From Shigella phage ESh24, in sequence record ON528734: a DNA stretch of 64,000 nt, one strand, 5' to 3'. Numbering within the stretch: position 1 is the stretch's first letter; each line of letters starts with the position of its first letter. Shown here one piece after another: positions 18,040 through 50,818 of the stretch. The notes beneath the pieces were generated by a model, which saw nothing but the letters and a program-made list of their open reading frames with translations, was not told the DNA's origin and made no database searches. The position numbers were made by a program, and so were the translations under genes.

Positions 18040-18040
<1 letters not shown>
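17315..18040 (+). CDS. 1: deoxynucleoside monophosphate kinase
   Basis: 241 aa from ATG 17315 (RBS gaggaga); P-loop-like MKLIFLSGVKRSGKDT; same length as T4 gp1. Confidence 0.9.
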
Positions 18041-18737
<697 letters not shown>

Positions 18738-18749
18738 TTTCACAAAGTT

Positions 18750-18779
18750 GTTTACATACTGATGAGGTAGTGATACTAT
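18750..18779 (+). promoter_or_regulatory. early-type promoter (GTTTACA -35, TGATACTAT -10) inside a 10-bp inverted repeat
   Basis: gtttaca at 18750-18756; -10-like element in the loop of hairpin 18760-18789. Confidence 0.5.
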
Positions 18780-18809
18780 TACCTCATCAAAATTAATTAG
18801 GAAAATAAA

Positions 18810-19067
18810 ATGAAAACTTTCAAAGAGTTTGCTATAAAAACTACTATTACTGAATCTTCCCACGGTATGGAAGTAAAACTTGGAATGGCTTTAGCTGAAG
18901 CTGAGCGTCTTTTCTCTCGTATTAAAGAACTTGCTGCTGCAGTCGATCCTTCGTCTTTTAAAGGAGACCAAACGAAAGTTAAAGCACTTTTAGCATTATG
19001 CTCCGATGCGGGAGAAATCGCTAAAAATGGTTCTAAGATGAAGAAACGATTAGAAGATTTAAAATAA
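18810..19067 (+). CDS. internal-protein-like small protein at the ipI locus (capsid-targeting-like N-terminus)
   Basis: 85 aa, MKTFKEFAIK… resembles the MKTYQEFIAE capsid-targeting sequence; LAE cleavage-like motif; sits where T4 has ipI. Confidence 0.6.
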   Translation: MKTFKEFAIKTTITESSHGMEVKLGMALAEAERLFSRIKELAAAVDPSSFKGDQTKVKALLALCSDAGEIAKNGSKMKKRLEDLK

Positions 19068-19079
19068 TTTCACAAAGTT

Positions 19080-19110
19080 ATTTACATAGGGTTTTAGTTG
19101 TGATACTATT
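19080..19110 (+). promoter_or_regulatory. early-type promoter inside a 7-bp inverted repeat
   Basis: tttaca…tgtgatactatt flanked by atagggt/accctat (19086-19117); near-identical to the 18750 promoter. Confidence 0.45.
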
Positions 19111-19138
19111 ACCCTATCAACTACTGAGGAGAATAAAA

Positions 19139-19324
19139 ATGAAACGTTGTGAATTAATTCGAAATGTTGCTATTGCAATTTCTGCTTCCGCTTTTAGTTT
19201 TTCAATGTTTGTTGGATTTATATGCGGATTATTGACTACAGCAGAAAATGTTTTTTCACTTGTAGTAGCATTTTTAATTGGTTTAATCGCTATTGTTATG
19301 GATAAAATTTCTAAAGGTGAATAA
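19139..19324 (+). CDS. small membrane protein (2 predicted TM helices)
   Basis: ATG 19139 with RBS gaggagaataaaa; 61 aa, hydrophobic AIAISASAFSFSMFVGFICGLL…. Confidence 0.5.
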   Translation: MKRCELIRNVAIAISASAFSFSMFVGFICGLLTTAENVFSLVVAFLIGLIAIVMDKISKGE

Positions 19325-19729
19325 ATGAATATTAACGAATATTATGTTTATGCTGGAGATTATGCAAATCCTTCTCATTTTGAAGGTAATTTAATACCTG
19401 ATAGAGTTTTTAATACTCCTTTTGAAGCGTGGAGTTGGGTTGAAAGTAAAAATGGATTTTCTTATCGTTATGTTGAAGTAACTGATTGGAAAGGAACTAA
19501 ATATCCTAAAGAGCATTATTATGTAGACCCATCTAAAGTAAATTTTCTTTTGTTCGCAGGCGATAATTACTATCCTTGCGGTGGATATGATGATTTGATT
19601 GCGTATGCTGAAACAGAAGATGAATTACGCCAAATTATTGAAGACAATAAATCAAAACGATTTGGCGATAGTTTTGACTGGTGGCAAATCGTAAATGCCC
19701 ATACACATACTATTGTTGATAAAGGTTAA
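19325..19729 (+). CDS. hypothetical protein
   Basis: 134-aa ORF, start overlaps upstream stop; aromatic-rich. Confidence 0.6.
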   Translation: MNINEYYVYAGDYANPSHFEGNLIPDRVFNTPFEAWSWVESKNGFSYRYVEVTDWKGTKYPKEHYYVDPSKVNFLLFAGDNYYPCGGYDDLIAYAETEDELRQIIEDNKSKRFGDSFDWWQIVNAHTHTIVDKG

Positions 19730-19731
19730 TA

Positions 19732-20019
19732 ATGATTCTTTATGCGAAAGTATCATCCATTGAAAATGGATATAAATATGATCAAGAAGCAGCTAAAGCC
19801 TTGATTGATGATTATGGCATTTTAACATGTTTTGAAGTTGAAAAGGTTTACATTGATCGTTCATCTTCGCAAGTTAAATTAGTAAATGAAGACCGTAAAT
19901 TTAATACAGTAAATTTTGATTTCTTTATTGAAACAGAAAAAGGTCCTCTTGAATATGATATTTTCAAGAATCCTTTGGGTCTTGAATGCATCGTAAGTAT
20001 GTATCATCATAAATGGTAA
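19732..20019 (+). CDS. hypothetical protein
   Basis: 95-aa ORF immediately following the previous gene. Confidence 0.55.
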   Translation: MILYAKVSSIENGYKYDQEAAKALIDDYGILTCFEVEKVYIDRSSSQVKLVNEDRKFNTVNFDFFIETEKGPLEYDIFKNPLGLECIVSMYHHKW

Positions 20020-20116
20020 ATATGCTTTAAGAATTATTTGTTATTATTAACTCATACCGCACTGATTAATACCCTCTATCATCAAGGGTTCTTGTTTGAG
20101 AGCCTTTGTTAATAAT

Positions 20117-20189
20117 TGGGAATTAGCCAAGTTGGTAAGGCATAGCACTTTGACTGCTAGATGCAAAGGTTCGAGTCCTTTATTCCCAG
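20117..20189 (+). tRNA. tRNA-Gln (anticodon TTG)
   Basis: Cloverleaf: acceptor tgggaat/attccca, anticodon loop ctTTGac, T-arm ggttcgagtcc; no encoded CCA. Confidence 0.85.
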
Positions 20190-20190
20190 C

Positions 20191-20277
20191 GCGAGAATGG
20201 TCAAATTGGTAAAGGCACAGCACTTAAAATGCTGCGGAATGATTTCCTTGTGGGTTCGAGTCCCACTTCTCGCACCA
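20191..20277 (+). tRNA. tRNA-Leu (anticodon TAA), type II
   Basis: Acceptor gcgagaa/ttctcgc, anticodon loop ctTAAaa, long variable arm, 3' CCA encoded. Confidence 0.85.
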
Positions 20278-20282
20278 AATTT

Positions 20283-20356
<74 letters not shown>

Positions 20357-20402
20357 ATTTATGACTCGTCGTGAGACGCTCAGTTCTTTATTAGGGACTG
20401 AT

Positions 20403-21011
20403 ATGCATTTTTATCTTTATAAAATAACAAATAAAATTAATAATAAAATTTATATTGGTGTGCATTCTACCGAAAATTTAGATGATGGATATATGGGTTC
20501 TGGTAAATTATTAAAAAGAGCCCAAGATAAATATGGTATAGAAAATTTTTCTAAAGAAATATTAGAGTATTTTGACGATAAAGAATCTATGCTTGAAGCC
20601 GAGAAAAATATTGTCACAGAAGAGTTTTTAAATAGACCAGATGTGTATAATTTAAAACTTGGAGGTGAAGGTGGATGGGATCATATAAATAATTATCCTA
20701 TGACAGATCAGCAACGCGAATTAATTTCATTGGGTGTTAAAAAGGCACATTCTAATGGAAAATTAAAAGGATGGTCTTCAAATGGATTAATGAAGAATGG
20801 CTTTGCTGGTAAAACTCATTCTCAAGAAGCTAAACGTAAAATAGCAAAAGCAAACGAAGCAAAAGTTTCTGTGGATGAAAGAAAAAGAAGAATAGAAATT
20901 TCTAAATTATATGATTTTTCTAAACGTGGCGAATTGTCTAAATATGCTAAGCATATTGGCGTAAGTCATACTCAAGCAAAAAGAATTCTAAATCAAATTA
21001 ACAATATATAA
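20403..21011 (+). CDS. segB: GIY-YIG homing endonuclease in the tRNA cluster
   Basis: GIY-YIG motif FYLYKITNKINNKIYIGVHSTENLDDGYMGSGKLLKRA; start ATG 20403 (RBS aggga), alternative ATG 20361. Confidence 0.8.
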   Translation: MHFYLYKITNKINNKIYIGVHSTENLDDGYMGSGKLLKRAQDKYGIENFSKEILEYFDDKESMLEAEKNIVTEEFLNRPDVYNLKLGGEGGWDHINNYPMTDQQRELISLGVKKAHSNGKLKGWSSNGLMKNGFAGKTHSQEAKRKIAKANEAKVSVDERKRRIEISKLYDFSKRGELSKYAKHIGVSHTQAKRILNQINNI

Positions 21012-21017
21012 ATATTT

Positions 21018-21107
21018 GGAGGCGTGGCAGAGTGGTTTAATGCACCGGTCTTGAAAATCGGCAGTCGCTCCGGCGACTCATAGGTTCAAATCCTATCGCC
21101 TCCGCCA
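21018..21107 (+). tRNA. tRNA-Ser (anticodon TGA), type II
   Basis: Acceptor ggaggcg/cgcctcc, anticodon loop cTTGAaa, long variable arm, CCA encoded. Confidence 0.85.
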
Positions 21108-21112
21108 GTTTT

Positions 21113-21188
21113 GCTGATTTAGCTTAGTAGGTAGAGCAACTCACTTGTAATGAGAAGGTCGGCGGTTCGATTCCGTCAATCAGCACCA
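21113..21188 (+). tRNA. tRNA-Thr (anticodon TGT)
   Basis: Acceptor gctgatt/aatcagc, anticodon loop cTTGTaa, T-arm ggttcgattcc, CCA encoded. Confidence 0.85.
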
Positions 21189-21189
21189 A

Positions 21190-21264
21190 GGCCCTGTAGC
21201 TGGAAGGTTCAAGCAAGCGACTCATAATCGCCAGATGGTGGTTCAATTCCACCCAGGGCCACCA
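21190..21264 (+). tRNA. tRNA with anticodon CAT (Ile2 or Met; Ile by position in T4)
   Basis: Acceptor ggccctg/cagggcc, anticodon loop ctCATaa, T-arm ggttcaattcc, CCA encoded. Confidence 0.8.
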
Positions 21265-21276
21265 AATTATGAATTA

Positions 21277-21363
21277 GGGGAGTTATCCCGTAGAGGTAGC
21301 GGTGTGGACTGTAAATCCATTGTCATTGCGACTCGGGTGGTTCGACTCCATCACTCCCCACCA
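21277..21363 (+). tRNA. tRNA-Tyr (anticodon GTA), type II
   Basis: Acceptor ggggagt/actcccc, anticodon stem-loop gtgga-ctGTAaa-tccat, long variable arm, T-arm ggtgg-ttcgact-ccatc, CCA encoded. Confidence 0.75.
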
Positions 21364-21367
21364 ATTT

Positions 21368-21442
21368 GGATGTGTAGCTCAATGGCAGAGCGATCGCCTG
21401 TTAAGCGATTGGTTATAGGTTCGAATCCTATCACGTCCGCCA
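21368..21442 (+). tRNA. tRNA-Asn (anticodon GTT)
   Basis: Acceptor ggatgtg/cacgtcc, anticodon stem-loop atcgc-ctGTTaa-gcgat, T-arm ggttcgaatcc, CCA encoded. Confidence 0.8.
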
Positions 21443-21446
21443 AATA

Positions 21447-21522
21447 CGAGGCATAGCTCAGAAGGAAGAGCAAGGACCTTCTAAGTCCTAGGTCGTAGGT
21501 TCGATCCCTACTGCCTCGACCA
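21447..21522 (+). tRNA. tRNA-Arg (anticodon TCT)
   Basis: Acceptor cgaggca/tgcctcg, anticodon stem-loop aggac-cTTCTaa-gtcct, T-arm ggttcgatccc, CCA encoded. Confidence 0.85.
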
Positions 21523-21538
21523 ATTAAGTGAGGAAAAT

Positions 21539-21889
21539 ATGAAAGGTAATGTTTATTTAGTAGTTCACGATTTAACATTTTATTTTAATCACAATGACAC
21601 TGTTATTTCTGAACGTGTAATTAATTTGCTTTATCAACACGCGGATTATGTTTATGTCGAAAACGAATATGGTCATTGGCAATTTCTCAAAAATCGTTCA
21701 TTTGGCTTAGATGGTTACGAATACTTTGAACGTAAAGACCTTTTAGATAAAATTCCGTTATCTACGCAATATCAAAATCACGAGTCTTTATATAAATGCC
21801 GTCCAATTCGAAATGCTGAATCTGCGTATGAAGCAATTGATTTATGGCGTAAACGTCGTGAACAGATTGATGCTTTAAAAGAATATTAA
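21539..21889 (+). CDS. hypothetical protein
   Basis: 116-aa ORF with strong RBS (gtgaggaaaat ATG) immediately after tRNA-Arg. Confidence 0.65.
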   Translation: MKGNVYLVVHDLTFYFNHNDTVISERVINLLYQHADYVYVENEYGHWQFLKNRSFGLDGYEYFERKDLLDKIPLSTQYQNHESLYKCRPIRNAESAYEAIDLWRKRREQIDALKEY

Positions 21890-21894
21890 GAAAC

Positions 21895-22230
21895 CGGGTC
21901 GCTACCGGTAAGTCGTCGGACTGATGTTCCCTGGGTAAGGAATCGTGTTAATAAATCTTTATGATTTGTTGATGCCCTCTTACATCACAGCAGAAACGGC
22001 GCACCGAATTATCGATTCGAGGAAATATCTTTGCCGTAAGCCGAGTAGCGTTTTTGACGGAACGTTCGGATATGGTCGAGATATGGCCTTTTAAAAAAAT
22101 ATTGAGTAGCGTCAACTGCTTAATAACCGGGTTCGAATCCCGGCGTTTCGTACAAACACTTGCCTTAGCAGGTGGAACCCCGACAAGGTTGCCGCAAGGC
22201 TTAGCCCCGACCGAAAGGTTGGGGCTTTTT
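21895..22230 (+). ncRNA. candidate stable structured RNA(s), possibly the counterpart of T4 species 1/2 (rnaC/rnaD) RNAs
   Basis: Visibly more GC-rich than flanks; tRNA-like T-arm aaccgggttcgaatcccgg; ends in terminator gccccgacc-gaaa-ggttggggc + TTTTT (22204-22230); no convincing ORF. Confidence 0.4.
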
Positions 22231-22305
22231 AGTTTGAATCACTCAGAGAATGCTGTTACGGATAATAAATAATTAATAACCAATAAATTATTTCAAGGAT
22301 TTTAA

Positions 22306-22869
22306 ATGAAAACCTATGCCGAATTTTTAACCGAAGCAGCAAAATTACCATCTGAAGCAGATCTTACTAAAGTATTCTTCCACTTGGACCCAAAAGACCG
22401 GGGCGATTTTCTTAAGTGGAAAGCTAAAGCTATTGAAATGTATAACATCGATAATAGTTCTTTTACGATGAGTCAAGAAAATAAATTCAATAAAGCATTT
22501 TTCAAAATTTCTAAGAAACTTGCATCAGGCGCTCAGGTTCCTAAATCTGCCTTAGCTACTCCTGAACGTGCGCCTGTTAAAATTTCTAAGAATATGTTCG
22601 ATACTAAAAAATACGTTAATGCTTTGAATAAAGCTCTTGATGCATTGGATGATGCAAAGAAGGCAGCACACGATCTTCAAGACGTATACACCGATTTTGA
22701 TCGTAAAACTAAAGGTTCTATTTCAAATAGCGAACGCAATAGTGTAAGTGTTTATTCTGATAGCCTTGATGTTCTTGGCGATGCGTATACTGAAATTAAA
22801 AATCGTATTAACACCGCATCTAAGCTAAAAGCTGCCGCAGAAGCTATAATAACTAAACTAAGCAAATAA
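22306..22869 (+). CDS. internal-protein-like protein with capsid-targeting sequence (MKTYAEFLTE-A)
   Basis: 187 aa; first 10 residues match the CTS pattern shared with the 27137 and 27827 products; RBS aagga. Confidence 0.7.
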   Translation: MKTYAEFLTEAAKLPSEADLTKVFFHLDPKDRGDFLKWKAKAIEMYNIDNSSFTMSQENKFNKAFFKISKKLASGAQVPKSALATPERAPVKISKNMFDTKKYVNALNKALDALDDAKKAAHDLQDVYTDFDRKTKGSISNSERNSVSVYSDSLDVLGDAYTEIKNRINTASKLKAAAEAIITKLSK

Positions 22870-23035
22870 TTTTAAATCCCTATCTAAATGATAGGGCTTT
22901 TTGGTATCTAGGCCTTTCCAGGCCTCTCTAGGCATCATTTAGTTTCTACCCTTTATAATATATTATCCTATCCTTTGATTTCCCCTCCCTGCCCTAGAAT
23001 TCCCCAAAACTTTTTAAAAAATTTTTCACAAAACT

Positions 23036-23066
23036 GTTTACATCCTTGTCCTTCCATGGTACTATA
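23036..23066 (+). promoter_or_regulatory. early-type promoter (GTTTACA … TGGTACTAT) with conserved leader
   Basis: Same promoter/leader block (tggtactatacaactatcaact) recurs at 38667, 40106 and 34652. Confidence 0.5.
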
Positions 23067-23108
23067 CAACTATCAACTACTGATACAGAAAACAACTTGG
23101 AGAATAAA

Positions 23109-23372
23109 ATGGATAATTACGGTGAACTGTTCAACTTCTTTATGAAATGTGTTTCAGAAGATTTTGGTCGTACAGTGAATGATATTAAAGTTATCGGTCC
23201 TGACCATCCGATGTTTGAAACCTACGCAGTAATGGGTAATGAAGATGGTCAGTGGTATACTGTAAAAGTTGTGATTAACATGTTCACTGCTGAAGGTTAT
23301 GTTAAACTGTCTTCTAAAGTTTACCATGATAACGATGAAATCGCAGAAGAATATTTCAATAATATGAAATAA
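23109..23372 (+). CDS. hypothetical protein
   Basis: 87 aa from ATG 23109 (RBS ggagaataaa); the upstream in-frame extension covers the promoter and is rejected. Confidence 0.6.
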   Translation: MDNYGELFNFFMKCVSEDFGRTVNDIKVIGPDHPMFETYAVMGNEDGQWYTVKVVINMFTAEGYVKLSSKVYHDNDEIAEEYFNNMK

Positions 23373-23441
23373 TTGTGTACAAACACCAAGGACGGTGTTA
23401 TTATAGACTTATCAAAACAAATACAGAAAACGGAGAAATAA

Positions 23442-23618
23442 ATGACTACATTAATTATTTGGTTTGACGAAAATGAAGAAACATACTGCGTGAACATTGG
23501 AGAAAGCCCAATGCCAGAATTTGAATCTTCGGATAAAAACTCGGTTGTATCTTGGGCTGAAGGTTATAAAGCAGCAAAAGGCGATGTTGAAATAGTTTAC
23601 AAACTATCCGGAGTATAA
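23442..23618 (+). CDS. small hypothetical protein
   Basis: 58 aa, MTTLIIWFDENEETYCVNIGESPMPEF…; RBS cggagaaataa. Confidence 0.45.
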   Translation: MTTLIIWFDENEETYCVNIGESPMPEFESSDKNSVVSWAEGYKAAKGDVEIVYKLSGV

Positions 23619-23661
23619 TACTCTCGTGGATTTTAAATCTTAATTAACCTAAGGAAATACT

Positions 23662-24255
23662 ATGAACACACTGAAGAAAATTGTTGAGTTTATTCGCACT
23701 AAACTTGGTTCTGCTATGGCTAAAAATCTATCTGTTGAAGAGCAGTATACTGCTGCGGCAGCAAAATTGCTTGATAAAATTAAAGATCTAAAAACTGCTT
23801 CTGTTAAATCTATTAATGAAGAAAAGCGTATTCGTGAACTTATTGTCGAAAAGAATAAGCAGGCCGAATCAAAAGAGCGTGAAATTCGCAAGCTTCTTTC
23901 CGAAGGTCAAGATGTAACAATGCATGCTAAACTCGGTTTACTATATCGTCGAACAGCTGAGCAGTTGACTACTAAAGCTGATGGTTATGCTGAAATGCGA
24001 ATTGAAATTGCCAAGAAAGTAGTTGAGTTAGATGATGCTCGCCAAGAACTTGCAGTTAAATTGGAATATATCCGTGAAACTCGTGCAGCAAATGCCCTTG
24101 GAATTAGTACTGCTGATGATGTAGTTGAAATTGCAGCGCTGACTAAGGTTGATATTGAAGATACTCTTGCCCGAGTTGAAACCTTTAATGGCAATATTTC
24201 CGGGGTTGAAACTACCTCTGCCGATGTTCAGGAATATATTAATTCTCTGAAATAA
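23662..24255 (+). CDS. coiled-coil protein
   Basis: 197 aa, predominantly helical/heptad sequence; RBS aaggaaatact; followed by ggggcttcggcccc hairpin. Confidence 0.65.
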
Positions 24256-26096: not shown

Positions 26097-27065
<969 letters not shown>

Positions 27066-27069
27066 AGTT

Positions 27070-27101
27070 GTTTACTTTCTCCTAAAACTGTGATAGTATA
27101 T
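27070..27101 (+). promoter_or_regulatory. early-type promoter with -10 element in hairpin loop
   Basis: gtttac at 27070-27075; -10-like tgatagtatatt within inverted repeat aactgtga/tcacagtt (27086-27109). Confidence 0.45.
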
Positions 27102-27136
27102 TCACAGTTACTAATTAAAATATTTAAAGGAAACAC

Positions 27137-27718
27137 ATGAAAACGTATAAAGAATTTATCGCTGAAGCTTCTGTGGAAAAGGCCAAAGGCATTAATAAAG
27201 ATGAGTGGACCTACCGTTCGGGAAACGGCTTTGACCCTAAAACGGCTCCTATTGAACGGTACTTAGCTACAAAGGCTTCCGACTTTAAAGCCTTCGCTTG
27301 GGAAGGACTTCGTTGGCGTACCGATTTAAATATTGAAGTTGATGGACTTAAATTTGGCCATATTCAGGATGTTGTTGCTAGTAACTTAGACGCAGCTTTT
27401 GTTAAAGCCGACGGTGACCTTCGTCGCTGGAATTTAAAACTGTTCTCTAAACAGAAAGGCCCGGTGTTTGTGCCTAAAGCTGGTAAATGGGTTATTGATA
27501 ATAAATTAGCTAAGGCTGTCAACTACGCTGGTCTTGAATTCGCCAAGCACAAATCATCATGGAGAAGTCTTGATGCAATGGCCTTCCGTAAAGAATTCGC
27601 CGAGGTTATGACTAAAGGCGGCTTTAAGGCAGAACTAGATACCTCTAAAGGTACGTTTAAAGACGCTAATGTTCAGTACGCTTACGCCGTTGCTAATGCA
27701 GCCCGCGGTAATTCTTAA
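27137..27718 (+). CDS. ipIII: internal protein III-like (capsid-targeting sequence MKTYKEFIAE-A)
   Basis: 193 aa (T4 IPIII is 194 aa); CTS; position adjacent to e. Confidence 0.75.
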   Translation: MKTYKEFIAEASVEKAKGINKDEWTYRSGNGFDPKTAPIERYLATKASDFKAFAWEGLRWRTDLNIEVDGLKFGHIQDVVASNLDAAFVKADGDLRRWNLKLFSKQKGPVFVPKAGKWVIDNKLAKAVNYAGLEFAKHKSSWRSLDAMAFRKEFAEVMTKGGFKAELDTSKGTFKDANVQYAYAVANAARGNS

Positions 27719-27734
27719 TAAAGCCGAGTTCGAA

Positions 27735-27800
27735 CCTGGTAATTGATAAATACAGAAACGGGCAATTCATGTGTGTGAATTGCCTCAAACTTAAAGAATA
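27735..27800. repeat. intergenic direct repeat, copy 1 (core AAATACAGAAACGGGCAATTCATG), contains palindrome ggcaattca…tgaattgcc
   Basis: Second copy at 28360-28450; a partial third (aaatacagaaaacgg) at about 23421-23435. Confidence 0.6.
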
Positions 27801-27826
27801 AAACTATTTACATTTAAAGGAAACAC

Positions 27827-28300
27827 ATGAAAACATATCAAGAATTTATTACTGAAGCAGCTATTAATTCTCAAATTATTGCTGAATCTTTTACTGATCT
27901 TTTGAAATTTAAAAAAGGACAGAAAATCACTGCTGTATTGGATGATGGTACAGAAGTTGAGATGGATGTGCAAGGATATAATTATGCAGTAGATGGAAAA
28001 CTGTATAATAAATCTCATGCTAAATTTGATTCATTTGACGACTTTGTTAATACAGTTGAAGATGAAAAAACTCGTCGATCCATTGCAACTGGTGATGCTA
28101 AGGTTCTTATGGCACATGGTCATGAACGCATTCGCGCTAAACAGAATAAAATGGGTGAAGATAATTTTGCATTAGTCGGTTATCAATCTGGTAAACAAAC
28201 CTATGGTTATCAGCGTACTGCTACCATGTATAACAAAAATGGTAAAATTGCCTTTGTAAATAGTAAAGGTTCTATTCAGTACGTTAAATCATTCAAATAA
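27827..28300 (+). CDS. internal-protein-like protein with capsid-targeting sequence (MKTYQEFITE-A)
   Basis: 157 aa; canonical CTS; body unlike the 27137 product and longer than T4 IPII (100 aa). Confidence 0.7.
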   Translation: MKTYQEFITEAAINSQIIAESFTDLLKFKKGQKITAVLDDGTEVEMDVQGYNYAVDGKLYNKSHAKFDSFDDFVNTVEDEKTRRSIATGDAKVLMAHGHERIRAKQNKMGEDNFALVGYQSGKQTYGYQRTATMYNKNGKIAFVNSKGSIQYVKSFK

Positions 28301-28359
28301 GCAAATAAGAAATATGGGAACAAACTGGACCTCATGATTCTGTGAGGGATTCCCGCCAA

Positions 28360-28450
28360 CCTGTAATAAGGTCGAGCCCAAGTGCGGTAATGGGTAAATA
28401 CAGAAATGGACAATTCATGCGCCACGGAATGGCCCAAACTTAGAGAGAAT
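28360..28450. repeat. intergenic direct repeat, copy 2 (core AAATACAGAAATGGACAATTCATG)
   Basis: ~80% identical to 27735-27800; together they bracket the 27827 gene. Confidence 0.6.
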
Positions 28451-28453
28451 AAA

Positions 28454-29322: not shown

Positions 29323-29329
29323 GGTTTAT

Positions 29330-30172: not shown

Positions 30173-30450
30173 TGGCTCAATTAAGCGCAGGGTTTGGTTA
30201 TGAGTATTATACTGCACCTCGTCGTGTATCTGCCGCTCCTAAGAAAATTCAAAGTCTTGATGACTTCCAAGAAGTAATTCGTAATGCTTTCCAGGACTAT
30301 GCGCGTTATCTTAAAGAAGATTCACAGGACTGTCTCGAAGAAGATGAAATTGCTTACTATGCGCAGCGTCTTGAACAGCTTAAAAACTTACATGAGGTTC
30401 GTGCAGAAGTTTCAAAGTCTATGAATAAATTGATCAGATTTAAAGAATAA
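30172..30450 (+). CDS. hypothetical protein
   Basis: 92 aa from ATG 30172 (RBS ggaaaaatact). Confidence 0.55.
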
Positions 30451-30452
30451 CT

Positions 30453-30482
30453 GTTTACTTTTCCTCTTGACTGTGGTATAAT
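30453..30482 (+). promoter_or_regulatory. early promoter (GTTTAC -35, TGGTATAAT extended -10) for regB
   Basis: Well-spaced -35/-10; the -10 lies in the loop of an 11-bp inverted repeat (30463-30501) whose 3' arm contains the regB SD aagaggag. Confidence 0.6.
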
Positions 30483-30509
30483 TTTTCTATCAGTTAAGAG
30501 GAGAATAAC

Positions 30510-30971
30510 ATGACTATCAACACAGAAGTTTTTATCCGTCGAAATAAGCTCCGTCGTCACTTTGAGTCGGAGTTTCGTCAAATTAACAATGAGATTCGTG
30601 AGGCATCAAAAGCAGCAGGAGTCTCATCGTTTCATCTAAAATATTCTCAACATCTTCTTGATCGTGCAATTCAACGGGAGATTGATGAGACATATGTTTT
30701 TGAATTATTCCATAAAATAAAAGACCATGTTTTAGAAGTTAATGAATTCCTGAGTATGCCTCCGCGTCCTGACATTGACGAGGATTTTATTGATGGGGTT
30801 GAATATCGTCCTGGACGTTTAGAAATCACAGATGGAAATCTTTGGCTTGGATTTACAGTTTGTAAACCTAACGAGAAGTTCAAAGACCCGTCACTTCAAT
30901 GTAGGATGGCAATTATCAACAGTCGTCGTTTACCAGGAAAGGCTTCTAAAGCAGTAATTAAAACTCAATGA
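30510..30971 (+). CDS. regB: sequence-specific endoribonuclease RegB
   Basis: 153 aa as T4 RegB; MTINTEVFIRRNKLRRHFESEF…; synteny near tk/e. Confidence 0.75.
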   Translation: MTINTEVFIRRNKLRRHFESEFRQINNEIREASKAAGVSSFHLKYSQHLLDRAIQREIDETYVFELFHKIKDHVLEVNEFLSMPPRPDIDEDFIDGVEYRPGRLEITDGNLWLGFTVCKPNEKFKDPSLQCRMAIINSRRLPGKASKAVIKTQ

Positions 30972-34618: not shown

Positions 34619-34642
34619 AGTCTCCTTCGGGAGACTTTTTTC
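34619..34642 (+). terminator. intrinsic terminator
   Basis: agtctcc-ttcg-ggagact hairpin followed by TTTTTT. Confidence 0.7.
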
Positions 34643-34651
34643 ATTTTACCG

Positions 34652-34682
34652 GTTTACTTTTCGTTTGAGCCGTGGTACTATA
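34652..34682 (+). promoter_or_regulatory. early-type promoter (GTTTAC … TGGTACTATA) with conserved leader
   Basis: Shares the tggtactatacaac block with promoters at 23036, 38667 and 40106. Confidence 0.5.
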
Positions 34683-34709
34683 CAACCATCGGATAAAGAG
34701 GAGAACATC

Positions 34710-34898
34710 ATGAAAATTGAAGCACTCAATCAAGAAGGAAATATTTACGTCATCATTAATGGTGATTTTTTCGTCGACATGGATGAAGTTACTAGTGAAG
34801 AACTTGTAGAACTTCTTAAGAAACGTTATAATATGTGTGATGAAGTTGCAACTCACATGGCGTGTGCAATATTCTCTCTTTCATATGTGGTGGAATAA
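34710..34898 (+). CDS. small hypothetical protein
   Basis: 62 aa from ATG 34710 (RBS aagaggagaac). Confidence 0.55.
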
Positions 34899-35298: not shown

Positions 35299-35461
35299 AA
35301 AGCAGATGCTTTTAATGAAACTAATTGAAGAATATGCTAACGCAGTTTCTGACTATGAATGTTCTTCTCGGGAAAGAGGTACAGCTTTCGCCAAAGAAGA
35401 AATGAAAATCATGGTTGATGCTCATACAAAGCTTCAAAATTTTATTGAAAACGTCATTTAA
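35288..35461 (+). CDS. small acidic helical protein (tandem family)
   Basis: 57 aa, MKTEKQMLLMKLIEEYANAV…. Confidence 0.45.
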   Translation: MKTEKQMLLMKLIEEYANAVSDYECSSRERGTAFAKEEMKIMVDAHTKLQNFIENVI

Positions 35462-35463
35462 TG

Positions 35464-35496
35464 GTTTACAAGTTGGCAAGGTTATGGTATAGTAAT
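35464..35496 (+). promoter_or_regulatory. early-type promoter (GTTTACA … TGGTATAGTAAT)
   Basis: -35/-10-like elements upstream of a 34-codon leader ORF (35522-35626) and gene 35626. Confidence 0.45.
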
Positions 35497-35625
35497 CTTG
35501 TCAACTGTTAAGGAGAAGAGAATGAAAGTTTTGTTTGTTGTGTATGTAATGATTCAATATAATCACCCAATGTTTACTTATAATCTGGTGAACAACATTA
35601 TTGATATTATTCAAAGGAGTATGTA

Positions 35626-35811: not shown

Positions 35812-35812
35812 C

Positions 35813-36079: not shown

Positions 36080-36080
36080 T

Positions 36081-38616: not shown

Positions 38617-38618
38617 TA

Positions 38619-38642
38619 GGGAGCCTTCGGGCTCCCTTTTTT
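38619..38642 (+). terminator. intrinsic terminator
   Basis: gggagcc-ttcg-ggctccc hairpin followed by TTTTTT. Confidence 0.75.
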
Positions 38643-38666
38643 ATTTCAAAAATTTTTCACAAAGTT

Positions 38667-38697
38667 GTTTACAAGCATAAAGCTTTATGGTACTATA
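38667..38697 (+). promoter_or_regulatory. early-type promoter (GTTTACA … TGGTACTAT) with conserved leader
   Basis: aatttttcacaaagttgtttaca upstream block; leader tatacaactatcaact…ggagaataaaATG near-identical to that of the 23109 gene. Confidence 0.5.
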
Positions 38698-38730
38698 CAA
38701 CTATCAACTGATACGGATTTGGAGAATAAA

Positions 38731-39699
38731 ATGAAAACTGTAACTATCAATAAGGGTATCTACTTTGGCAAAGAAATCTCTGGAACTTTTGAACTCTTAG
38801 GTGAATGGTTCCCAGATAATGCTCCAGTAGATGCACAAGGAGATGGTAAAGTTTTTGTTGAAATTGACGGTAAACGTCGCGGTGTTTGGGTTTACAAATC
38901 AGACATTTCATATGATGGTGTAAAAGTTGAAGAAGTTAAAGAATCGTATGAAGATATGAAAACCCGCATTAATAAAAGATTTAATGTTATGGGAATGATG
39001 ACGAATGGTATTATTAACGGAAACATTCGTTCATTAATTATCTCTGGTGCGGCGGGTATTGGTAAAACGTATTCTTTAGATAAAGCTTTAAATAAAGCAA
39101 ATGATATTGGATACATTGAATATAAAAGCATTAACGGTAAAATCTCTGGTATCGGTCTTTATGAACAGCTTTGGAATAATCGTGAAGAGAATTCTGTCCT
39201 TTTGATTGATGATGTGGATGTTTTCTCTGATATGGACATTCTTAATCTTCTGAAAGCTGCTCTGGACACCGGAGAGACCCGTAAAGTCTGCTGGAGCACC
39301 GCATCTTCTTACTTAGAAGAAAAAGGCATTGAGCGTGAGTTTGAATTTAAAGGAACGATTGTTTTTATCACAAACGTTGACATTGACCGCGAATTAGACC
39401 GTGGTACTAAACTTGCTCCACATTTACAAGCATTAGTGTCCCGCTCAGTTTATTTGGATTTGGGTGTTCACACTAATGAAGAAATTATGGTCAGGGTTGA
39501 AGATGTTATTCTTTCAACTGACATGATGCAAAAGCGCGGTCTTTCTGATGAAGAAACTTATAAAGCATTATCATGGATGAAAGTCAATGTTAATCGTTTA
39601 CGCAATGTTTCACTGCGTACTGCACTTTATCTTGCTGACTTTATTATGACCGACAAAAATGGTTGGGAAGAAATTGCTGAGGTTACTCTTCTGAAATAA
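38731..39699 (+). CDS. AAA-type P-loop ATPase
   Basis: 322 aa from ATG 38731 (RBS ggagaataaa); Walker A GAAGIGKT, Walker B-like VLLIDDVD. Confidence 0.65.
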   Translation: MKTVTINKGIYFGKEISGTFELLGEWFPDNAPVDAQGDGKVFVEIDGKRRGVWVYKSDISYDGVKVEEVKESYEDMKTRINKRFNVMGMMTNGIINGNIRSLIISGAAGIGKTYSLDKALNKANDIGYIEYKSINGKISGIGLYEQLWNNREENSVLLIDDVDVFSDMDILNLLKAALDTGETRKVCWSTASSYLEEKGIEREFEFKGTIVFITNVDIDRELDRGTKLAPHLQALVSRSVYLDLGVHTNEEIMVRVEDVILSTDMMQKRGLSDEETYKALSWMKVNVNRLRNVSLRTALYLADFIMTDKNGWEEIAEVTLLK

Positions 39700-39797: not shown

Positions 39798-40103
39798 ATG
39801 ATGTTATACTCAAAGGCTCGTGAAATTTACGAAACTAAAATTAAAGAAGCAGTATTTCAGTTCGCAACAACGATGCGATGGACAAATGATTGGGAATATT
39901 CAAAAAATCATAAGAAGCCCATGGTGACAAGAAAGGCTCATGTGTTAGTGTTAATAGACCGTGAGCAGATTAAAGCCCGAGAAGCCCTCCAGAATCATAA
40001 AAAGGCTGCCTTTGAATGGTTTATGGATAACACTGCTCCTGAGACTAAGAAAGCAGTGAGCGCTTGGTTCAGTGGAAAAAATTGTGAAAGAAGTTTCTTT
40101 TAG
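39798..40103 (+). CDS. hypothetical protein
   Basis: ~101 aa; RBS ggagg; start among ATGs at 39789/39798/39801. Confidence 0.55.
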   Translation: MMLYSKAREIYETKIKEAVFQFATTMRWTNDWEYSKNHKKPMVTRKAHVLVLIDREQIKAREALQNHKKAAFEWFMDNTAPETKKAVSAWFSGKNCERSFF

Positions 40104-40105
40104 TT

Positions 40106-40136
40106 GTTTACAAGACAGTTCCTCTGTGGTACTATA
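40106..40136 (+). promoter_or_regulatory. early-type promoter (GTTTACA … TGGTACTAT) with conserved leader
   Basis: Same cassette as at 23036 and 38667. Confidence 0.5.
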
Positions 40137-40163
40137 CAACTATCAACTACGGAGGAACAGAAA

Positions 40164-40691
40164 ATGAATGCTAAAGATATTTTCAACTTGGTAAACTACA
40201 ATGATGGTAAATTTAAATCTGAAGCTCAAAGCAAGTTTTTTAATGATGTCTCAATCGGTGGTGAAATCACGGTTGATGGAGGACAAGTTTATAAATCTCG
40301 TTGGAATTGGATCGTTATTATCGATGAGATTGGTATTGTAGAAATTTACAAGAATACGAATAAAAATCGTACATTACACTGGTCTCGTGATACTAACGAA
40401 CAGTACAAAAAGGATAAAGCATCTAAATTATCTCGTGTAACTCAAGAAGATATTGAGTTCATCAAAAAGGATATTTTGATGTATGATAACTTAATTGCTG
40501 AAGAGCAAGCTGTTATTGATAAATTTGACGAGATTAAAGCTTCTCGTGAAATTCCTGATTTTATGAAAGAATCAGTAAATGAACGATACACTCTCATTTC
40601 AGAGCGTATTGAAACTTACAAAAAGCAAAGAGCTGAACGCCAGAACACTCTTCGGAAATTTGAAGAACGGTTAAAGACGGTACTCGCATAA
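40164..40691 (+). CDS. hypothetical protein
   Basis: 175 aa from ATG 40164 (RBS ggaggaacag). Confidence 0.6.
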   Translation: MNAKDIFNLVNYNDGKFKSEAQSKFFNDVSIGGEITVDGGQVYKSRWNWIVIIDEIGIVEIYKNTNKNRTLHWSRDTNEQYKKDKASKLSRVTQEDIEFIKKDILMYDNLIAEEQAVIDKFDEIKASREIPDFMKESVNERYTLISERIETYKKQRAERQNTLRKFEERLKTVLA

Positions 40692-42056: not shown

Positions 42057-43079
42057 ATGAAAACTCGTTCTCAAATTGAAGATATGGTTCGTAATGCCAG
42101 CTATACTCGTGATGTTATGACATTTTTGTGCCAAAATAATTTAGACCCTGATAAAGTTAATCGTGTTATTCATCACTTTAAGTATACGAATAGCAGTGAA
42201 TGGGTGCGTAATTTTAGTAAAGCAGGGTATATTACGCAAATGACTGCTCGTGAACAGCTCACCGATTTCTGTAAAACTATTGATTATAAAAATCCTCTAT
42301 TTGTTCAAGGTGTTGGTCAAAGTAAGGTCGATTTATCATCTGGATTTTTCAATCCAAATCATTATCGTATTGAATGGAGATTTATTGCTCTATTCCGTAA
42401 ACAATTAAAGCAAATTTTGTCTACTGCTAGTCGATTAAAAGGTTCTGATATTAACTTAAAGAATCTGAAATTTGATGGTTATACTCTTCAGATGGAAGTA
42501 AGACCATTAAAAGAAAATAATAGAACTGCACGAATTAGCTTTAAACCTAATACAAAAAATTCTCTTTCAATTTGTGAATGCCTTAAATCACAGTTGACAG
42601 AAGCATTTAAGTATATGGATGTTGTTGCTGCTGTTCAATCTAAGATTTTACCTCGTTTTGAACGATTTAAGTTAGATACAACAACATATGAACTTGATAT
42701 GATTGTTTCATTTAAATACGATTTTTTGAGAAAGGACGAAGTCCCGCAAGAGAAAAAGCAGGAAGTGCAAGATACCTTAAATTCATCTAATTACTCATCA
42801 AACGATCCTAAATTTTGGATGTATAGCTCAAGCAATATAGATGCATGTAAACTTAATAAAGTGAGTTTTCTTCCTACTGAAAATTCAAATTTTAAACCTG
42901 TAGAAAAATGGCACGCTGACGCGATTGAGAAGTCTCTTAAGGCAGTAGATGATGAACTCGTTAAAGCGACCAATGAAGTGCTAGAAGCTGAAAAGGTGTT
43001 AGAACAAGCTCAGTCAAGGGTTCAAAATCTGACAAAGCAACGTTCTAAACTGAACAATGCACTAAATGCACTGAACTAG
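42057..43079 (+). CDS. hypothetical protein with C-terminal coiled coil (family member 2)
   Basis: 340 aa; N-terminus MKTR…; C-terminal coiled coil …LEAEKVLEQAQSRVQNLTKQRSKLNNALNALN. Confidence 0.65.
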   Translation: MKTRSQIEDMVRNASYTRDVMTFLCQNNLDPDKVNRVIHHFKYTNSSEWVRNFSKAGYITQMTAREQLTDFCKTIDYKNPLFVQGVGQSKVDLSSGFFNPNHYRIEWRFIALFRKQLKQILSTASRLKGSDINLKNLKFDGYTLQMEVRPLKENNRTARISFKPNTKNSLSICECLKSQLTEAFKYMDVVAAVQSKILPRFERFKLDTTTYELDMIVSFKYDFLRKDEVPQEKKQEVQDTLNSSNYSSNDPKFWMYSSSNIDACKLNKVSFLPTENSNFKPVEKWHADAIEKSLKAVDDELVKATNEVLEAEKVLEQAQSRVQNLTKQRSKLNNALNALN

Positions 43080-43108
43080 TTTACTTTGCCACAAGGATGT
43101 GGTATAAT
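43079..43108 (+). promoter_or_regulatory. early promoter (GTTTAC -35, TGGTATAAT -10)
   Basis: Near-consensus spacing and extended -10 upstream of gene 43137. Confidence 0.55.
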
Positions 43109-43136
43109 GTTCTTACTTTCTACTGAGGAGATTAAT

Positions 43137-44138
43137 ATGACTCGTAACGAATATATCAAATCATTCAATAGCGTTATTGATGATAAAGCTATACCGATGT
43201 TTGGCCAAAATAGCGTTCTTTCTATTATTAATCAATGGCTCAATAGTGTTGATGCAAGTATTGTTTCTTCTACTAAATTTATTCATGAAATTCGTAAAAT
43301 TTCTAGCCGTGTAGATAAAGATCTTATCAAGAAAACCTTTAAAGAGTCTCGTCTTCTTTCATATTTGGTTAATCGGGATATTCTTGGTAATTTTGGGAAA
43401 GAAATTAAACGAACCAAAGATGTAGTAGGATATAATTGGTTCGGTGATGTTAATTCTTATCATCTTAATAATAAAGAAGACCCTGAGAATATTTTTACTC
43501 GTCGTTGGATTAGTAATTTCAGACTTTTCAAAGGACAAATTCTAAAATCAGCTTCTAAATTATGTTATGGCGATTATCGTCAAATTCATCCTTTGGCTTC
43601 TGATATGATTATCGTAAAAGAATATGAGCTTGATGAAAATAAAGTAGCTATTTTTGTGAATTATGGATTTTTTACACCAAACGCTAACCAAAAGAATATT
43701 AATAAATTTTTCTCAATTGCTAGCACTATAACTCGTCAGTTAGAGACTGCATTACTTTGTATGGAAACAGTAGAAAATATTCATACATATCCTTTTAAGA
43801 ATATATGCGGATGGGAAGGATATAAAATTGTAATTAGTCTTCGTGAAGTGAAATGTGCTTATTCACCTACTGATAAAGAAATTTACCAACAAAAATGCGA
43901 AGAAATTGTGAATACTCCTAAAGAAGAAACTACCCTTGAGGAACTAATGGATAATCTTGATGATTCGCCTGAACCGGTAGAAATTCGTCCAGAAGTTATT
44001 GCGTTAGAAAAAGCTTATAAAGAAGTTCTAGAAATTTCTAATAAAGCACAGAAAGAATATGAGCAGGCTAAAAGGATTTGGGAAGAATCTGTTAATCGTC
44101 TTGATCGTTTGGAACAAGCTTTACAGTTAATTAAGTAA
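43137..44138 (+). CDS. hypothetical protein with C-terminal coiled coil (family member 3)
   Basis: 333 aa from ATG 43137 (RBS gaggag); C-terminal coiled coil. Confidence 0.65.
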   Translation: MTRNEYIKSFNSVIDDKAIPMFGQNSVLSIINQWLNSVDASIVSSTKFIHEIRKISSRVDKDLIKKTFKESRLLSYLVNRDILGNFGKEIKRTKDVVGYNWFGDVNSYHLNNKEDPENIFTRRWISNFRLFKGQILKSASKLCYGDYRQIHPLASDMIIVKEYELDENKVAIFVNYGFFTPNANQKNINKFFSIASTITRQLETALLCMETVENIHTYPFKNICGWEGYKIVISLREVKCAYSPTDKEIYQQKCEEIVNTPKEETTLEELMDNLDDSPEPVEIRPEVIALEKAYKEVLEISNKAQKEYEQAKRIWEESVNRLDRLEQALQLIK

Positions 44139-50500: not shown

Positions 50501-50575
50501 TCTTACATTCTGTATATTACCATTCTAAGCTATCGTTCCATTCTTATCATTCCCTAAAATAATTTTCACAAAGTT

Positions 50576-50606
50576 GTTTACAACAAGTTCAAACTGTGGT
50601 ATTATT
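50576..50606 (+). promoter_or_regulatory. early-type promoter (GTTTACA … TGGTATTAT)
   Basis: aattttcacaaagttgtttaca block as at 38651 and 18741. Confidence 0.5.
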
Positions 50607-50635
50607 AACACATGAATTGCCTTTGAGGAATTGAT

Positions 50636-50818
50636 ATGGTTGTGGTTGATAAAGAAATTAAAAAGGGACAGTATTATCTTATTAATGGTAATGCTGTTCG
50701 CGTTACTTACGTAAATGGTTATGATGTTTATTATCTTATACTTAAGTTACATAAACACATGATTTGTGACCGTGCTGTATTTAGTTCAGTTGCTAAGGAA
50801 ATTAAACTCCATGGGTAA
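50636..50818 (+). CDS. small hypothetical protein
   Basis: 60 aa; RBS gaggaattgat. Confidence 0.5.
   Translation: MVVVDKEIKKGQYYLINGNAVRVTYVNGYDVYYLILKLHKHMICDRAVFSSVAKEIKLHG

What the first reader, a model, noticed from the sequence alone, without database searches (positions are those of the whole stretch)
23036..23108. Recurring promoter-leader cassette as potential recombination hot spot
The block (ttttcacaaa)gttgtttaca…(n)…tggtactatacaac(t/c)atc… recurs at 23036, 34652, 38667 and 40106, with two copies extending through the leader to ggagaataaaATG. The upstream half (tttcacaaagtt(g/a)tttaca) also occurs at 18741, 19071 and 50566. Such repeated ~40-70 bp early-promoter modules can drive co-regulation and can also act as homology patches for gene shuffling between phages.
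Basis: seen in the sequence. Interest (0 to 1): 0.45.

Follow-up and report, generated by a model that had tools for sequence, protein, structure and literature searches.

The report
Phage T4 early promoter cassettes
The repeated block is the well-known strong early promoter of a T4-like phage, with its ribosome-binding / RegB-cleavage leader, and its use as a short homology patch for gene shuffling is already published (the "PeSL" cassettes), so the finding is real and correctly read but ordinary.

Summary
The window is the reverse complement of a Tequatrovirus (T4-like) genome, roughly T4 coordinates 93 to 28 kb. The block at 23036-23108 is the early promoter and 5' leader of gene e.8. It is one of 11 such cassettes (plus one weak one), all on the + strand between 18.7 and 50.6 kb. 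Each lies at the position of an equivalent site in T4 (ipI, trna.4, e.8, ipIII, regB, mobD.5, mobD.2, nrdC.10, nrdC.8, nrdC.4, 55.6).

Anatomy: A/T-rich upstream block, -35 GTTTAC, 17-nt spacer, TGn, -10 TAnnAT, short leader, GGAG Shine-Dalgarno, ATG. The shared "GGAGAATAAAA" exactly matches the published strong RegB/S1 cleavage consensus.

Comparison with seven relatives shows real exchanges inside cassettes:
- a T6 deletion fusing the ipIII and regB promoters within TGTTTACTTT;
- three different inserts at the nrdC.10 cassette;
- variable numbers of promoter-plus-gene units at the ipI locus;
- a converted e.8 promoter in fPS-65.

Indel endpoints are enriched in cassettes relative to random positions (p=0.001). 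They are not significantly enriched relative to other gene boundaries (p=0.1-0.3).

All of this is already described (T4 early promoters; PeSL cassettes, Arbiol 2010, Comeau 2014; Repoila 1994). Verdict: observation confirmed, interpretation supported, already known, low interest.

The parts
23006..23111 (+). e.8 early promoter-leader cassette (the finding). A/T-rich upstream block with TTTTTCACAAAACT at 23009-23035; -35 TTTACA 23037-23042 (G at 23036); 17-nt spacer; TGG 23057-23059; -10 TACTAT 23060-23065; leader 23066-23108; GGAGAATAAAA (SD / RegB-S1 consensus) 23099-23109; ATG 23109-23111. Predicted transcription start about 23071-23073 (inferred, not mapped).
   Evidence: Lies at the position of T4 70695, upstream of e.8. 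The downstream ORF is 98.9% identical to T4 e.8. No hairpin predicted (z +0.95).
18722..18812 (+). Early promoter cassette of the ipI-locus gene (here an 85-aa ORF matching the one T6 annotates as Ip5, 18810-19067). -35 at 18751, ATG 18810. A 10-13 bp hairpin encloses the -10.
   Evidence: (T4 73938)
19052..19141 (+). Early promoter cassette of trna.4. -35 at 19081, GGAGAATAAAA 19128-19138, ATG 19139. Its upstream part (19052-19080) resembles the 18751 copy more than its T4 counterpart does. Insertion point of Ip6 and other IP genes in T6, QOTSP, fPS-65 and UFV-AREG1.
23376..23404 (+). Weak promoter-like site (TGTACA-17-TATTAT, TG present). It sits exactly at the left breakpoint (23372) where T4 e.7 is replaced by a 58-aa ORF.
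27041..27139 (+). ipIII promoter cassette. -35 at 27071, ATG 27137, hairpin around the -10. Left end of the 3.4-kb T6 deletion (27083).
30424..30512 (+). regB promoter cassette. -35 at 30454, ATG 30510. The spacer pairs with the SD region. Right end of the T6 deletion (30452).
34619..34712 (+). Terminator hairpin (34619-34636, then a T run) plus the mobD.5 promoter cassette. -35 at 34653, ATG 34710.
35435..35524 (+). mobD.2 promoter cassette. -35 at 35465, ATG 35522. A 13-15 bp hairpin encloses the -10.
38618..38733 (+). Terminator hairpin GGGAGCC-TTCG-GGCTCCC plus the nrdC.10 promoter cassette. -35 at 38668, GGAGAATAAAA 38721-38731, ATG 38731. Three different inserts sit here among 7 relatives.
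40077..40166 (+). nrdC.8 promoter cassette. -35 at 40107, ATG 40164. The spacer pairs with the SD region.
43050..43139 (+). nrdC.4 promoter cassette. -35 at 43080, ATG 43137.
50547..50638 (+). 55.6 promoter cassette. -35 at 50577, ATG 50636.

Best explanation
The block is a T4-type early promoter with its 5' leader, here the one that drives gene e.8. Host sigma-70 RNA polymerase recognises four elements: the A/T-rich upstream block (UP-like), -35 GTTTAC, TGn and the -10 TAnnAT. This gives immediate strong transcription of the + strand early genes. The short leader ends in a GGAG Shine-Dalgarno. In three copies (19128, 23099, 38721) that sequence is the full 11-nt RegB/S1 recognition sequence, so the same module also sets the early shut-off of its mRNA by RegB cleavage.

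The copies look alike mainly because three functional blocks are under common selection: UP/-35, TGn/-10 plus the initial transcribed sequence, and the SD/RegB site. These same 10-40 nt blocks also serve as short homology patches. The T4 recombination machinery occasionally crosses over in them, which deletes, inserts or swaps promoter-plus-gene units and converts one cassette by another.

Shown here: sequence anatomy, correspondence to T4 sites, strand and position bias, hybrid and duplicated cassettes at indel junctions in relatives.
Inferred: promoter activity, start site, RegB cleavage, and the recombination mechanism (homologous crossover versus replication slippage or mini-circles).
For: Identity of the window: 95-98% identical to Tequatrovirus genomes and collinear with T4 on the reverse strand.

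Promoter evidence:
- All 11 cassettes lie at the positions of equivalent T4 sites upstream of ipI, trna.4, e.8, ipIII, regB, mobD.5, mobD.2, nrdC.10, nrdC.8, nrdC.4 and 55.6.
- All are on the + strand, with none on the - strand and none in shuffles.
- The information profile peaks at -35, TGn/-10 and the upstream TTTCACAAAGTT.
- Published descriptions match: 'uber UP/-35/TGn/-10' T4 early promoters (PMC2988021); TTTACW-N17-TAYWAT PeSL consensus for T4/PST (PMC4122927).
- The fPS-65 record annotates the same sites as predicted early promoters.

RegB evidence: GGAG lies in the SD of 8 of 11 cassettes. The only three exact matches in the window to the published strong RegB consensus GGAGRAYARAA (PMC3014915) are the three cassette leaders, against 0.39 expected.

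Recombination evidence:
- The T6 e|regB junction is a clean hybrid. It has the ipIII-promoter upstream half and the regB-promoter downstream half, joined in the shared TGTTTACTTT.
- A 583-bp modB_2 insert in UFV-AREG1 is flanked by two cassettes with a 39-nt alignment overlap. A 275-bp insert in QOTSP and 493/515-bp inserts in fPS-65 and SP21535 sit at the same cassette, 38668.
- The ipI locus holds 1 to 4 IP genes, each with its own cassette.
- The fPS-65 e.8 promoter carries the spacer and upstream block of the T4 27079 (imm.1-side) cassette. The same cassette precedes Ip6 in QOTSP and nrdC.10 in fPS-65/SP21535.
- Endpoint clusters fall in cassette spans 8 of 54 times, against 4% of bases (p=0.0013).
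Against: - No transcription data were examined, so promoter use, start site and RegB cleavage are inferred from sequence and from the T4 literature.
- Against other gene boundaries the enrichment of indel endpoints is not significant (p=0.28 and p=0.11). Only 7 relatives were used, events are not independent, and ORF calling was crude.
- Most indels in the region are not at cassettes. They involve homing-endonuclease genes (mobB/C/D, I-TevII, seg genes), the tRNA cluster, IP leader repeats and terminator hairpins.
- No synteny breakpoint lies inside the 23036 copy itself in the 7 relatives.
- Exact homology between copies is at most 24 nt, which is short for efficient homologous recombination.
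Confidence: 0.88

Rival explanations
1. Pure functional convergence. The copies resemble each other only because each is selected for the same RNA polymerase, ribosome and RegB contacts. They play no special role in recombination, and indels end near them only because whole-gene indels must end between genes.
For: The conserved blocks coincide with known functional elements. Enrichment of endpoints over other gene junctions is not significant. Most indels lie elsewhere.
Against: Several junctions lie inside the cassettes at base-pair resolution with 10-39 nt of shared sequence: the T6 hybrid promoter and the duplicated cassettes flanking inserts. Non-functional parts move together as blocks between unrelated loci: spacer sequence, and leader between the -10 and the SD. 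Examples are the fPS-65 e.8 promoter against T4 27079, and Ip6 against the nrdC.10 promoter.
Confidence: 0.1
2. The elements are MotA-dependent middle promoters or late promoters, not early ones.
For: Several of the genes (ipIII, IP genes, regB region) are also expressed later in T4 (from memory of the T4 literature). About half of middle promoters also carry TGn (PMC2988021).
Against: All copies have a -35 GTTTAC(A/T) at 17-nt spacing plus an upstream A/T block. That is the early-promoter signature. It is not the MotA box centred at -30 that the review describes for middle promoters (the MotA-box sequence was not scanned for here). None has the TATAAATA late motif at the -10 position.
Confidence: 0.02
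3. A dedicated mobile element. The cassettes are moved by a specific recombinase or DNA-binding protein that recognises the stem-loop, rather than by general homology-dependent recombination.
For: Stem-loops occur in 8 of 11 cassettes. Arbiol et al. raise this speculation and report mini-circles in RB49/phi1.
Against: Stem sequences and positions differ from cassette to cassette. The finding's own copy has none. Crossover points fall in the conserved promoter blocks, not in the stems. No recombinase is known.
Confidence: 0.05

Closest known systems
Bacteriophage T4 early promoters (Pe), as reviewed by Hinton 2010 (PMC2988021)
   Same: UP-like A/T block, -35, TGn and -10 in one element. Extra conserved positions beyond the sigma-70 hexamers. 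Located before prereplicative genes. Every copy here lies at the position of a T4 site.
   Different: Nothing of substance. The window is a different Tequatrovirus isolate (about 92-97% identical to T4 in the aligned stretches), with a few base differences in spacers.
PeSL (promoter-early stem-loop) regulatory cassettes of T4-like phages: Arbiol et al. 2010 (PMC2839356); Comeau, Arbiol & Krisch 2014 (PMC4122927, T4/PST pair)
   Same: Composite of A/T-rich region, early promoter, stem-loop (upstream of, or overlapping, the -10), SD and start codon. Concentrated in the plastic early regions. Found next to insertions, deletions and replacements. Consensus TTTACW-N17-TAYWAT.
   Different: The copy at 23036 has no stem-loop. 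Mini-circle formation was not tested. In this sample, enrichment over other gene boundaries is not statistically significant.
Modular shuffling at the T-even internal-protein (IP) loci: Repoila et al. 1994, as cited in PMC2839356 and PMC4122927 (paper itself not held)
   Same: The ipI locus (18751/19081) and ipIII locus (27071) carry variable numbers and kinds of IP genes. Each has its own promoter cassette and a conserved MKT(Y/F)xEF leader.
   Different: The finding's own copy drives e.8, which is not an IP gene.
Strong RegB/S1 cleavage sites, GG*AGRAYARAA: Durand et al. 2006, as reviewed in PMC3014915
   Same: GGAGAATAAAA in the translation-initiation region of early genes. It occurs at exactly the three cassette leaders.
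   Different: Cleavage was not tested. 5 of the 8 GGAG-bearing cassettes deviate from the 11-nt consensus.

Membership tests
T4-type early promoter | -35 hexamer (G)TTTAC(A/T) and -10 TAnnnT separated by 17 +/- 1 nt | tested here: met
   All 11 copies have 17-nt spacing.
T4-type early promoter | Extended -10 TGn | tested here: met
   TG is present 1 nt upstream of the -10 in all 11 copies.
T4-type early promoter | A/T-rich UP-like region upstream of -35 | tested here: met
   The AAAAT(A/T)TTTCACAAAGTT block occurs in 6 copies, and the others are A/T-rich. Binding of alpha-CTD was not tested.
T4-type early promoter | Lies upstream of, and co-oriented with, a prereplicative gene, at the position of a T4 promoter | tested here: met
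   The sites are annotated as predicted early promoters in fPS-65.
T4-type early promoter | Transcription by unmodified sigma-70 holoenzyme immediately after infection | not testable with these tools
   Needs RNA 5'-end mapping or in vitro transcription.
PeSL cassette | Early promoter combined with a stem-loop (upstream of, between, or overlapping the boxes) | tested here: inconclusive
   Stem-loops occur in 8 of 11 copies: upstream terminators at 34619 and 38618, and hairpins enclosing the -10 at 18751, 19081, 27071, 30454, 35465 and 40107. The finding's copy at 23037, and 50577, have none.
PeSL cassette | SD and start codon at the 3' end of the motif | tested here: met
PeSL cassette | Association with indels and replacements between close relatives | tested here: inconclusive
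   Clear junctions lie inside cassettes at 19081, 23376, 27071, 30454 and 38668. Enrichment over random positions has p=0.0013, but over other gene junctions p=0.28 and p=0.11.
PeSL cassette | Formation of excised mini-circles between neighbouring cassettes | not testable with these tools
   Needs outward-facing PCR on phage DNA.
Strong RegB/S1 site | 11-nt motif GGAGRAYARAA in an early intergenic translation-initiation region | tested here: met
   Exact at 19128, 23099 and 38721, and nowhere else in the window. Consensus taken from PMC3014915.
Strong RegB/S1 site | Cleavage between G and A in vivo, stimulated by ribosomal protein S1 | not testable with these tools
   Needs primer extension in regB+ and regB- infections.

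The most novel reading that the evidence does not exclude
In about a third of cassette versions, a hairpin pairs the promoter spacer with the first 10-25 transcribed nucleotides, often including the SD. This hairpin may act at the RNA level as an 'origin filter'. Read-through transcripts from upstream promoters would contain both arms and have the SD (and RegB site) occluded. Transcripts started at the cassette's own promoter would lack the left arm and be open. Each promoter-plus-gene unit would then be expressed autonomously wherever recombination drops it.

Support: own-partner stems of 7 bp or more occur in 22 of 65 versions, against 4.9% with swapped partners. The mobD.2 hairpin keeps pairing through one A-T to G-C double change and through G.T (G.U) wobbles, which would be mismatches in DNA.

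The published PeSL papers treat these stem-loops as terminators or attenuators. The analogous SD-occlusion logic is known in T4 only for genes e, soc, 49 and I-TevI (PMC3014915).
Probability: 0.25. Interest if true: 0.35.

Novelty: already known. Interest (0 to 1): 0.15.

Why it matters
It matters little as a discovery. T4 early promoters are textbook elements, and their role as linkers for modular shuffling has been published for the T4/PST pair itself.

The check is still useful as annotation. It places 11 early transcription units and three likely strong RegB sites in this genome. It also gives base-pair-resolution examples of cassette-mediated exchange: the T6 ipIII/regB promoter fusion, three different inserts at the nrdC.10 promoter, and a converted e.8 promoter in fPS-65. 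Finally, it shows that with a proper gene-boundary control the 'hot spot' claim is weaker than the anecdotes suggest.

Tried and rejected
- Chance repeat: rejected.
- Known structured RNA in or near the leader: an Rfam scan of 18000-24000 found only 9 tRNAs.
- Middle or late promoter: rejected on anatomy.
- Full-length PWM (-30..+45): it found only its own training sites and missed weaker T4 promoters (e.7, e.6, ipII, denV). I therefore used a core matrix (-4..+31) at threshold 12.
- First junction test with loose windows gave p=0.013. With equal-size windows and 7 relatives it fell to p=0.28 (p=0.11 for intergenic spacers of 40 nt or more). I report the stricter result.
- IMG/VR scan for the 21-mer TGGTACTATACAACTATCAAC: only 21 loci from a handful of contigs, not used further.
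- Miller et al. 2003 and Repoila et al. 1994 are not held in the library. They are cited only through papers that are held, or from memory.
- Searches were partly wasted. I wrongly thought some loci were not available to scripts, when in fact one file holds several loci.

Full report
**Observation**

The sequence at 23006-23111 reads as follows:
- an A/T-rich tract with TTTTTCACAAAACT;
- GTTTACA at 23036-23042;
- a 17-nt spacer;
- TGG at 23057-23059;
- TACTAT at 23060-23065;
- a 43-nt leader;
- GGAGAATAAAA at 23099-23109;
- ATG at 23109.

The 14-mer TGGTACTATACAAC occurs exactly four times, at 23057, 34673, 38688 and 40127, all on the + strand. The upstream half, TTTCACAAAGTT(G/A)TTTACA, occurs at 18738, 19068, 38655 and 50564, and with two mismatches at 23024. 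That is 5 matches against 0.27 expected, and no shuffle reached 5.

The repeat finder groups the copies into families of 69-78 nt at 60-84% identity.

**Where the window comes from**

The region is 92-98% identical to hundreds of Tequatrovirus genomes. A BLAST map against T4 (AF158101) shows the window is the reverse complement of roughly T4 93 kb to 28 kb. Local replacements occur at the ipI locus, the tRNA cluster, e.7, ipII/denV, tk.1-2, mobD and 49.2-3. The window lacks segC, I-TevII, mobC and mobB.

**What the copies are**

A simple pattern, and then a position-weight matrix, find 11 strong copies. The -35 elements start at 18751, 19081, 23037, 27071, 30454, 34653, 35465, 38668, 40107, 43080 and 50577. 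There is one weak copy at 23376. All are on the + strand, and there are none on the - strand or in shuffled sequence.

Each copy lies at the position of an equivalent element in T4. Each sits 57-72 nt upstream of the ATG of its gene:

| Window -35 | Gene |
|---|---|
| 18751 | ipI locus |
| 19081 | trna.4 |
| 23037 | e.8 |
| 27071 | ipIII |
| 30454 | regB |
| 34653 | mobD.5 |
| 35465 | mobD.2 |
| 38668 | nrdC.10 |
| 40107 | nrdC.8 |
| 43080 | nrdC.4 |
| 50577 | 55.6 |

The ORF after the finding's copy is 98.9% identical to T4 e.8. Information content peaks at the upstream TTTCACAAAGTT, the -35, TGn/-10 and, more weakly, the first transcribed bases ACAACTATCAAC.

This matches the published descriptions:
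- T4 early promoters are 'uber UP/-35/TGn/-10' promoters with extra regions of consensus (Hinton 2010, PMC2988021).
- The consensus for the T4/PST pair is TTTACW-N17-TAYWAT (Comeau et al. 2014, PMC4122927).
- The public fPS-65 record annotates the same sites as 'predicted early promoter'.

**The leader**

GGAG lies in the Shine-Dalgarno of 8 of 11 cassettes. The review of T4 post-transcriptional control gives GG*AGRAYARAA as the consensus of strong intergenic RegB/S1 cleavage sites (PMC3014915). The window has exactly three perfect matches, against 0.39 expected. They are the three leaders at 19128, 23099 and 38721.

This is an inference from sequence; cleavage was not tested.

**Stem-loops**

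Folding -80..+50 of each cassette shows hairpins in 8 of 11.
- 34653 and 38668 have G+C-rich terminator hairpins just upstream.
- 18751, 19081, 27071, 30454, 35465 and 40107 have hairpins that enclose the -10. In 30454 and 40107 the spacer pairs with the SD.
- The finding's own copy has none (z +0.95).

I compared 65 distinct cassette versions from the window and seven relatives. A perfect stem of 7 bp or more between spacer and downstream arm occurs in 22 of them. With partners swapped between cassettes the rate is 4.9%. This composite of promoter, stem-loop, SD and ATG is what Arbiol et al. (PMC2839356) named PeSL.

**Test of the recombination reading**

I aligned the window against seven genomes: T4, T6 (L029), Shfl2 (L030), QOTSP (L031), UFV-AREG1 (L032), SP21535 (L033) and fPS-65 (L034). 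I then listed every break in collinearity of 40 nt or more. Several breaks lie inside cassettes at base-pair resolution.

1. T6 lacks window 27083-30452 (ipIII to vs.3). Its e|regB intergenic region is a clean hybrid. It has the ipIII-promoter upstream half and the regB-promoter spacer, -10 and leader, joined within the shared TGTTTACTTT.
2. At cassette 38668 (the nrdC.11|nrdC.10 junction) there are three different insert contents.
   - UFV-AREG1 has a 583-bp insert (modB_2) flanked by two cassettes, with a 39-nt alignment overlap.
   - QOTSP has a 275-bp insert.
   - fPS-65 and SP21535 have 493/515-bp inserts with two small ORFs.
3. At cassette 19081, T6, QOTSP and fPS-65 carry an extra IP gene (annotated Ip6 in T6) with its own cassette, with a 24-nt overlap. 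UFV-AREG1 has four IP genes, each with a cassette.
4. In the window itself, the upstream part of the 19081 cassette looks like the 18751 copy rather than its T4 counterpart.
5. Cassettes are mosaic.
   - The fPS-65 e.8 promoter carries the spacer AGACTGTTCTTCCATGG and the upstream block of the T4 cassette at 27079 (imm.1 side, outside the window).
   - One and the same cassette, leader included, precedes Ip6 in QOTSP and nrdC.10 in fPS-65/SP21535.

So the finding's own cassette has taken part in exchange in at least one relative, even though no synteny break falls inside it in these seven genomes. The nearest breaks are about 160-185 nt upstream and 335 nt downstream, the latter at the weak 23376 site.

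**Statistics**

| Comparison | Cassette | Other | p |
|---|---|---|---|
| Endpoint clusters in cassette spans vs 4.0% of bases | 8 of 54 | - | 0.0013 |
| Equal-size windows upstream of gene starts | 5/10 | 24/69 | 0.28 |
| Intergenic spacers of 40 nt or more | 8/11 | 7/17 | 0.11 |

An earlier test with looser windows gave p=0.013. I regard the stricter result as the fair one.

Most indels involve homing-endonuclease genes, the tRNA cluster, IP leader repeats or terminator hairpins. Some of these also show overlap homology, for example 40 nt at terminator 22203-22226 in fPS-65. Exact homology between cassette copies is at most 24 nt. Arbiol et al. cite Singer et al. 1982 for T4 recombination needing only patches under 50 bp.

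**Conclusion**

The element is a T4 early promoter-leader cassette. Its repetition reflects common selection on three functional blocks. Those blocks are demonstrably used as short homology patches in the evolution of this phage group. Both points are already in the literature: Hinton 2010, Arbiol 2010, Comeau 2014, and Repoila 1994 as cited by the latter two.

What is not shown here:
- promoter activity;
- the start site;
- RegB cleavage;
- the recombination mechanism;
- any excess of events over other gene boundaries.

Novelty: already known. Interest: low.

Noticed in passing
window 22306-22869 (within the 22233-22878 block that T4 lacks): A 187-aa ORF begins MKTYAEFLTEA, the conserved internal-protein (capsid-targeting) leader. 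It sits between the small-RNA region of the tRNA cluster and the e.8 promoter, which is outside the two classical IP loci. Relatives carry different ORFs at this spot (Shfl2 567 nt, UFV-AREG1 474 nt, fPS-65 two ORFs).
   Followed up: partly
window 27827-28300 and 23442-23618: T4 ipII plus denV are replaced by a 157-aa IP-type ORF (MKTYQEFITEA; the corresponding Shfl2 ORF is annotated Ip4). T4 e.7 is replaced by a 58-aa ORF. tblastn finds no denV anywhere in the 64-kb window.
   Followed up: partly
window 35471-35510; also T4 and UFV-AREG1 copies (L032:24613): The hairpin enclosing the -10 of the mobD.2 promoter keeps pairing across phages. It does so through one A-T to G-C double change and through G.T positions that pair only as G.U in RNA. 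This hints at an RNA-level role in read-through transcripts.
   Followed up: partly
window 30460-30510 and 40113-40160: In the regB and nrdC.8 cassettes the promoter spacer is complementary to the leader, including the GGAG Shine-Dalgarno. Transcripts coming from upstream would have the SD/RegB site paired, while promoter-proximal transcripts would not.
   Followed up: no
window 24257, 51439, 54816, 60352, 62299 (22-nt family); 22203-22226: A dispersed family of GGGCTTCGGCCC-type terminator hairpins. One terminator (22203-22226) flanks a 519-bp insert in fPS-65 with a 40-nt overlap, so terminators also serve as homology patches.
   Followed up: partly
window 13132-13275, - strand gene: Five 24-nt (8-codon) tandem repeats. 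By the T4 map they fall in the 3' part of gene 5 (baseplate hub / tail lysozyme), presumably its C-terminal beta-helix repeats (the identification is an inference).
   Followed up: no
window 22900-23010: An unusually pyrimidine-rich, C-rich stretch (AGGCCTTTCCAGGCCTCTCTAGGC ... TTTCCCCTCCCTGCCCTAGAATTCCCC) lies just upstream of the e.8 promoter. It is conserved in T4 and relatives and has no Rfam match.
   Followed up: no
window 58779-59656 and 35637-36083: Insertions of 877 bp (by the T4 map between rpbA and gene 45) and 446 bp (by the T4 map between mobD.2 and mobD.1) relative to T4. A seg-like ORF lies inside the tRNA cluster (about 20361-21011, 83% identical to part of SegB). Nine tRNA genes lie at 20117-21519.
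   Followed up: no
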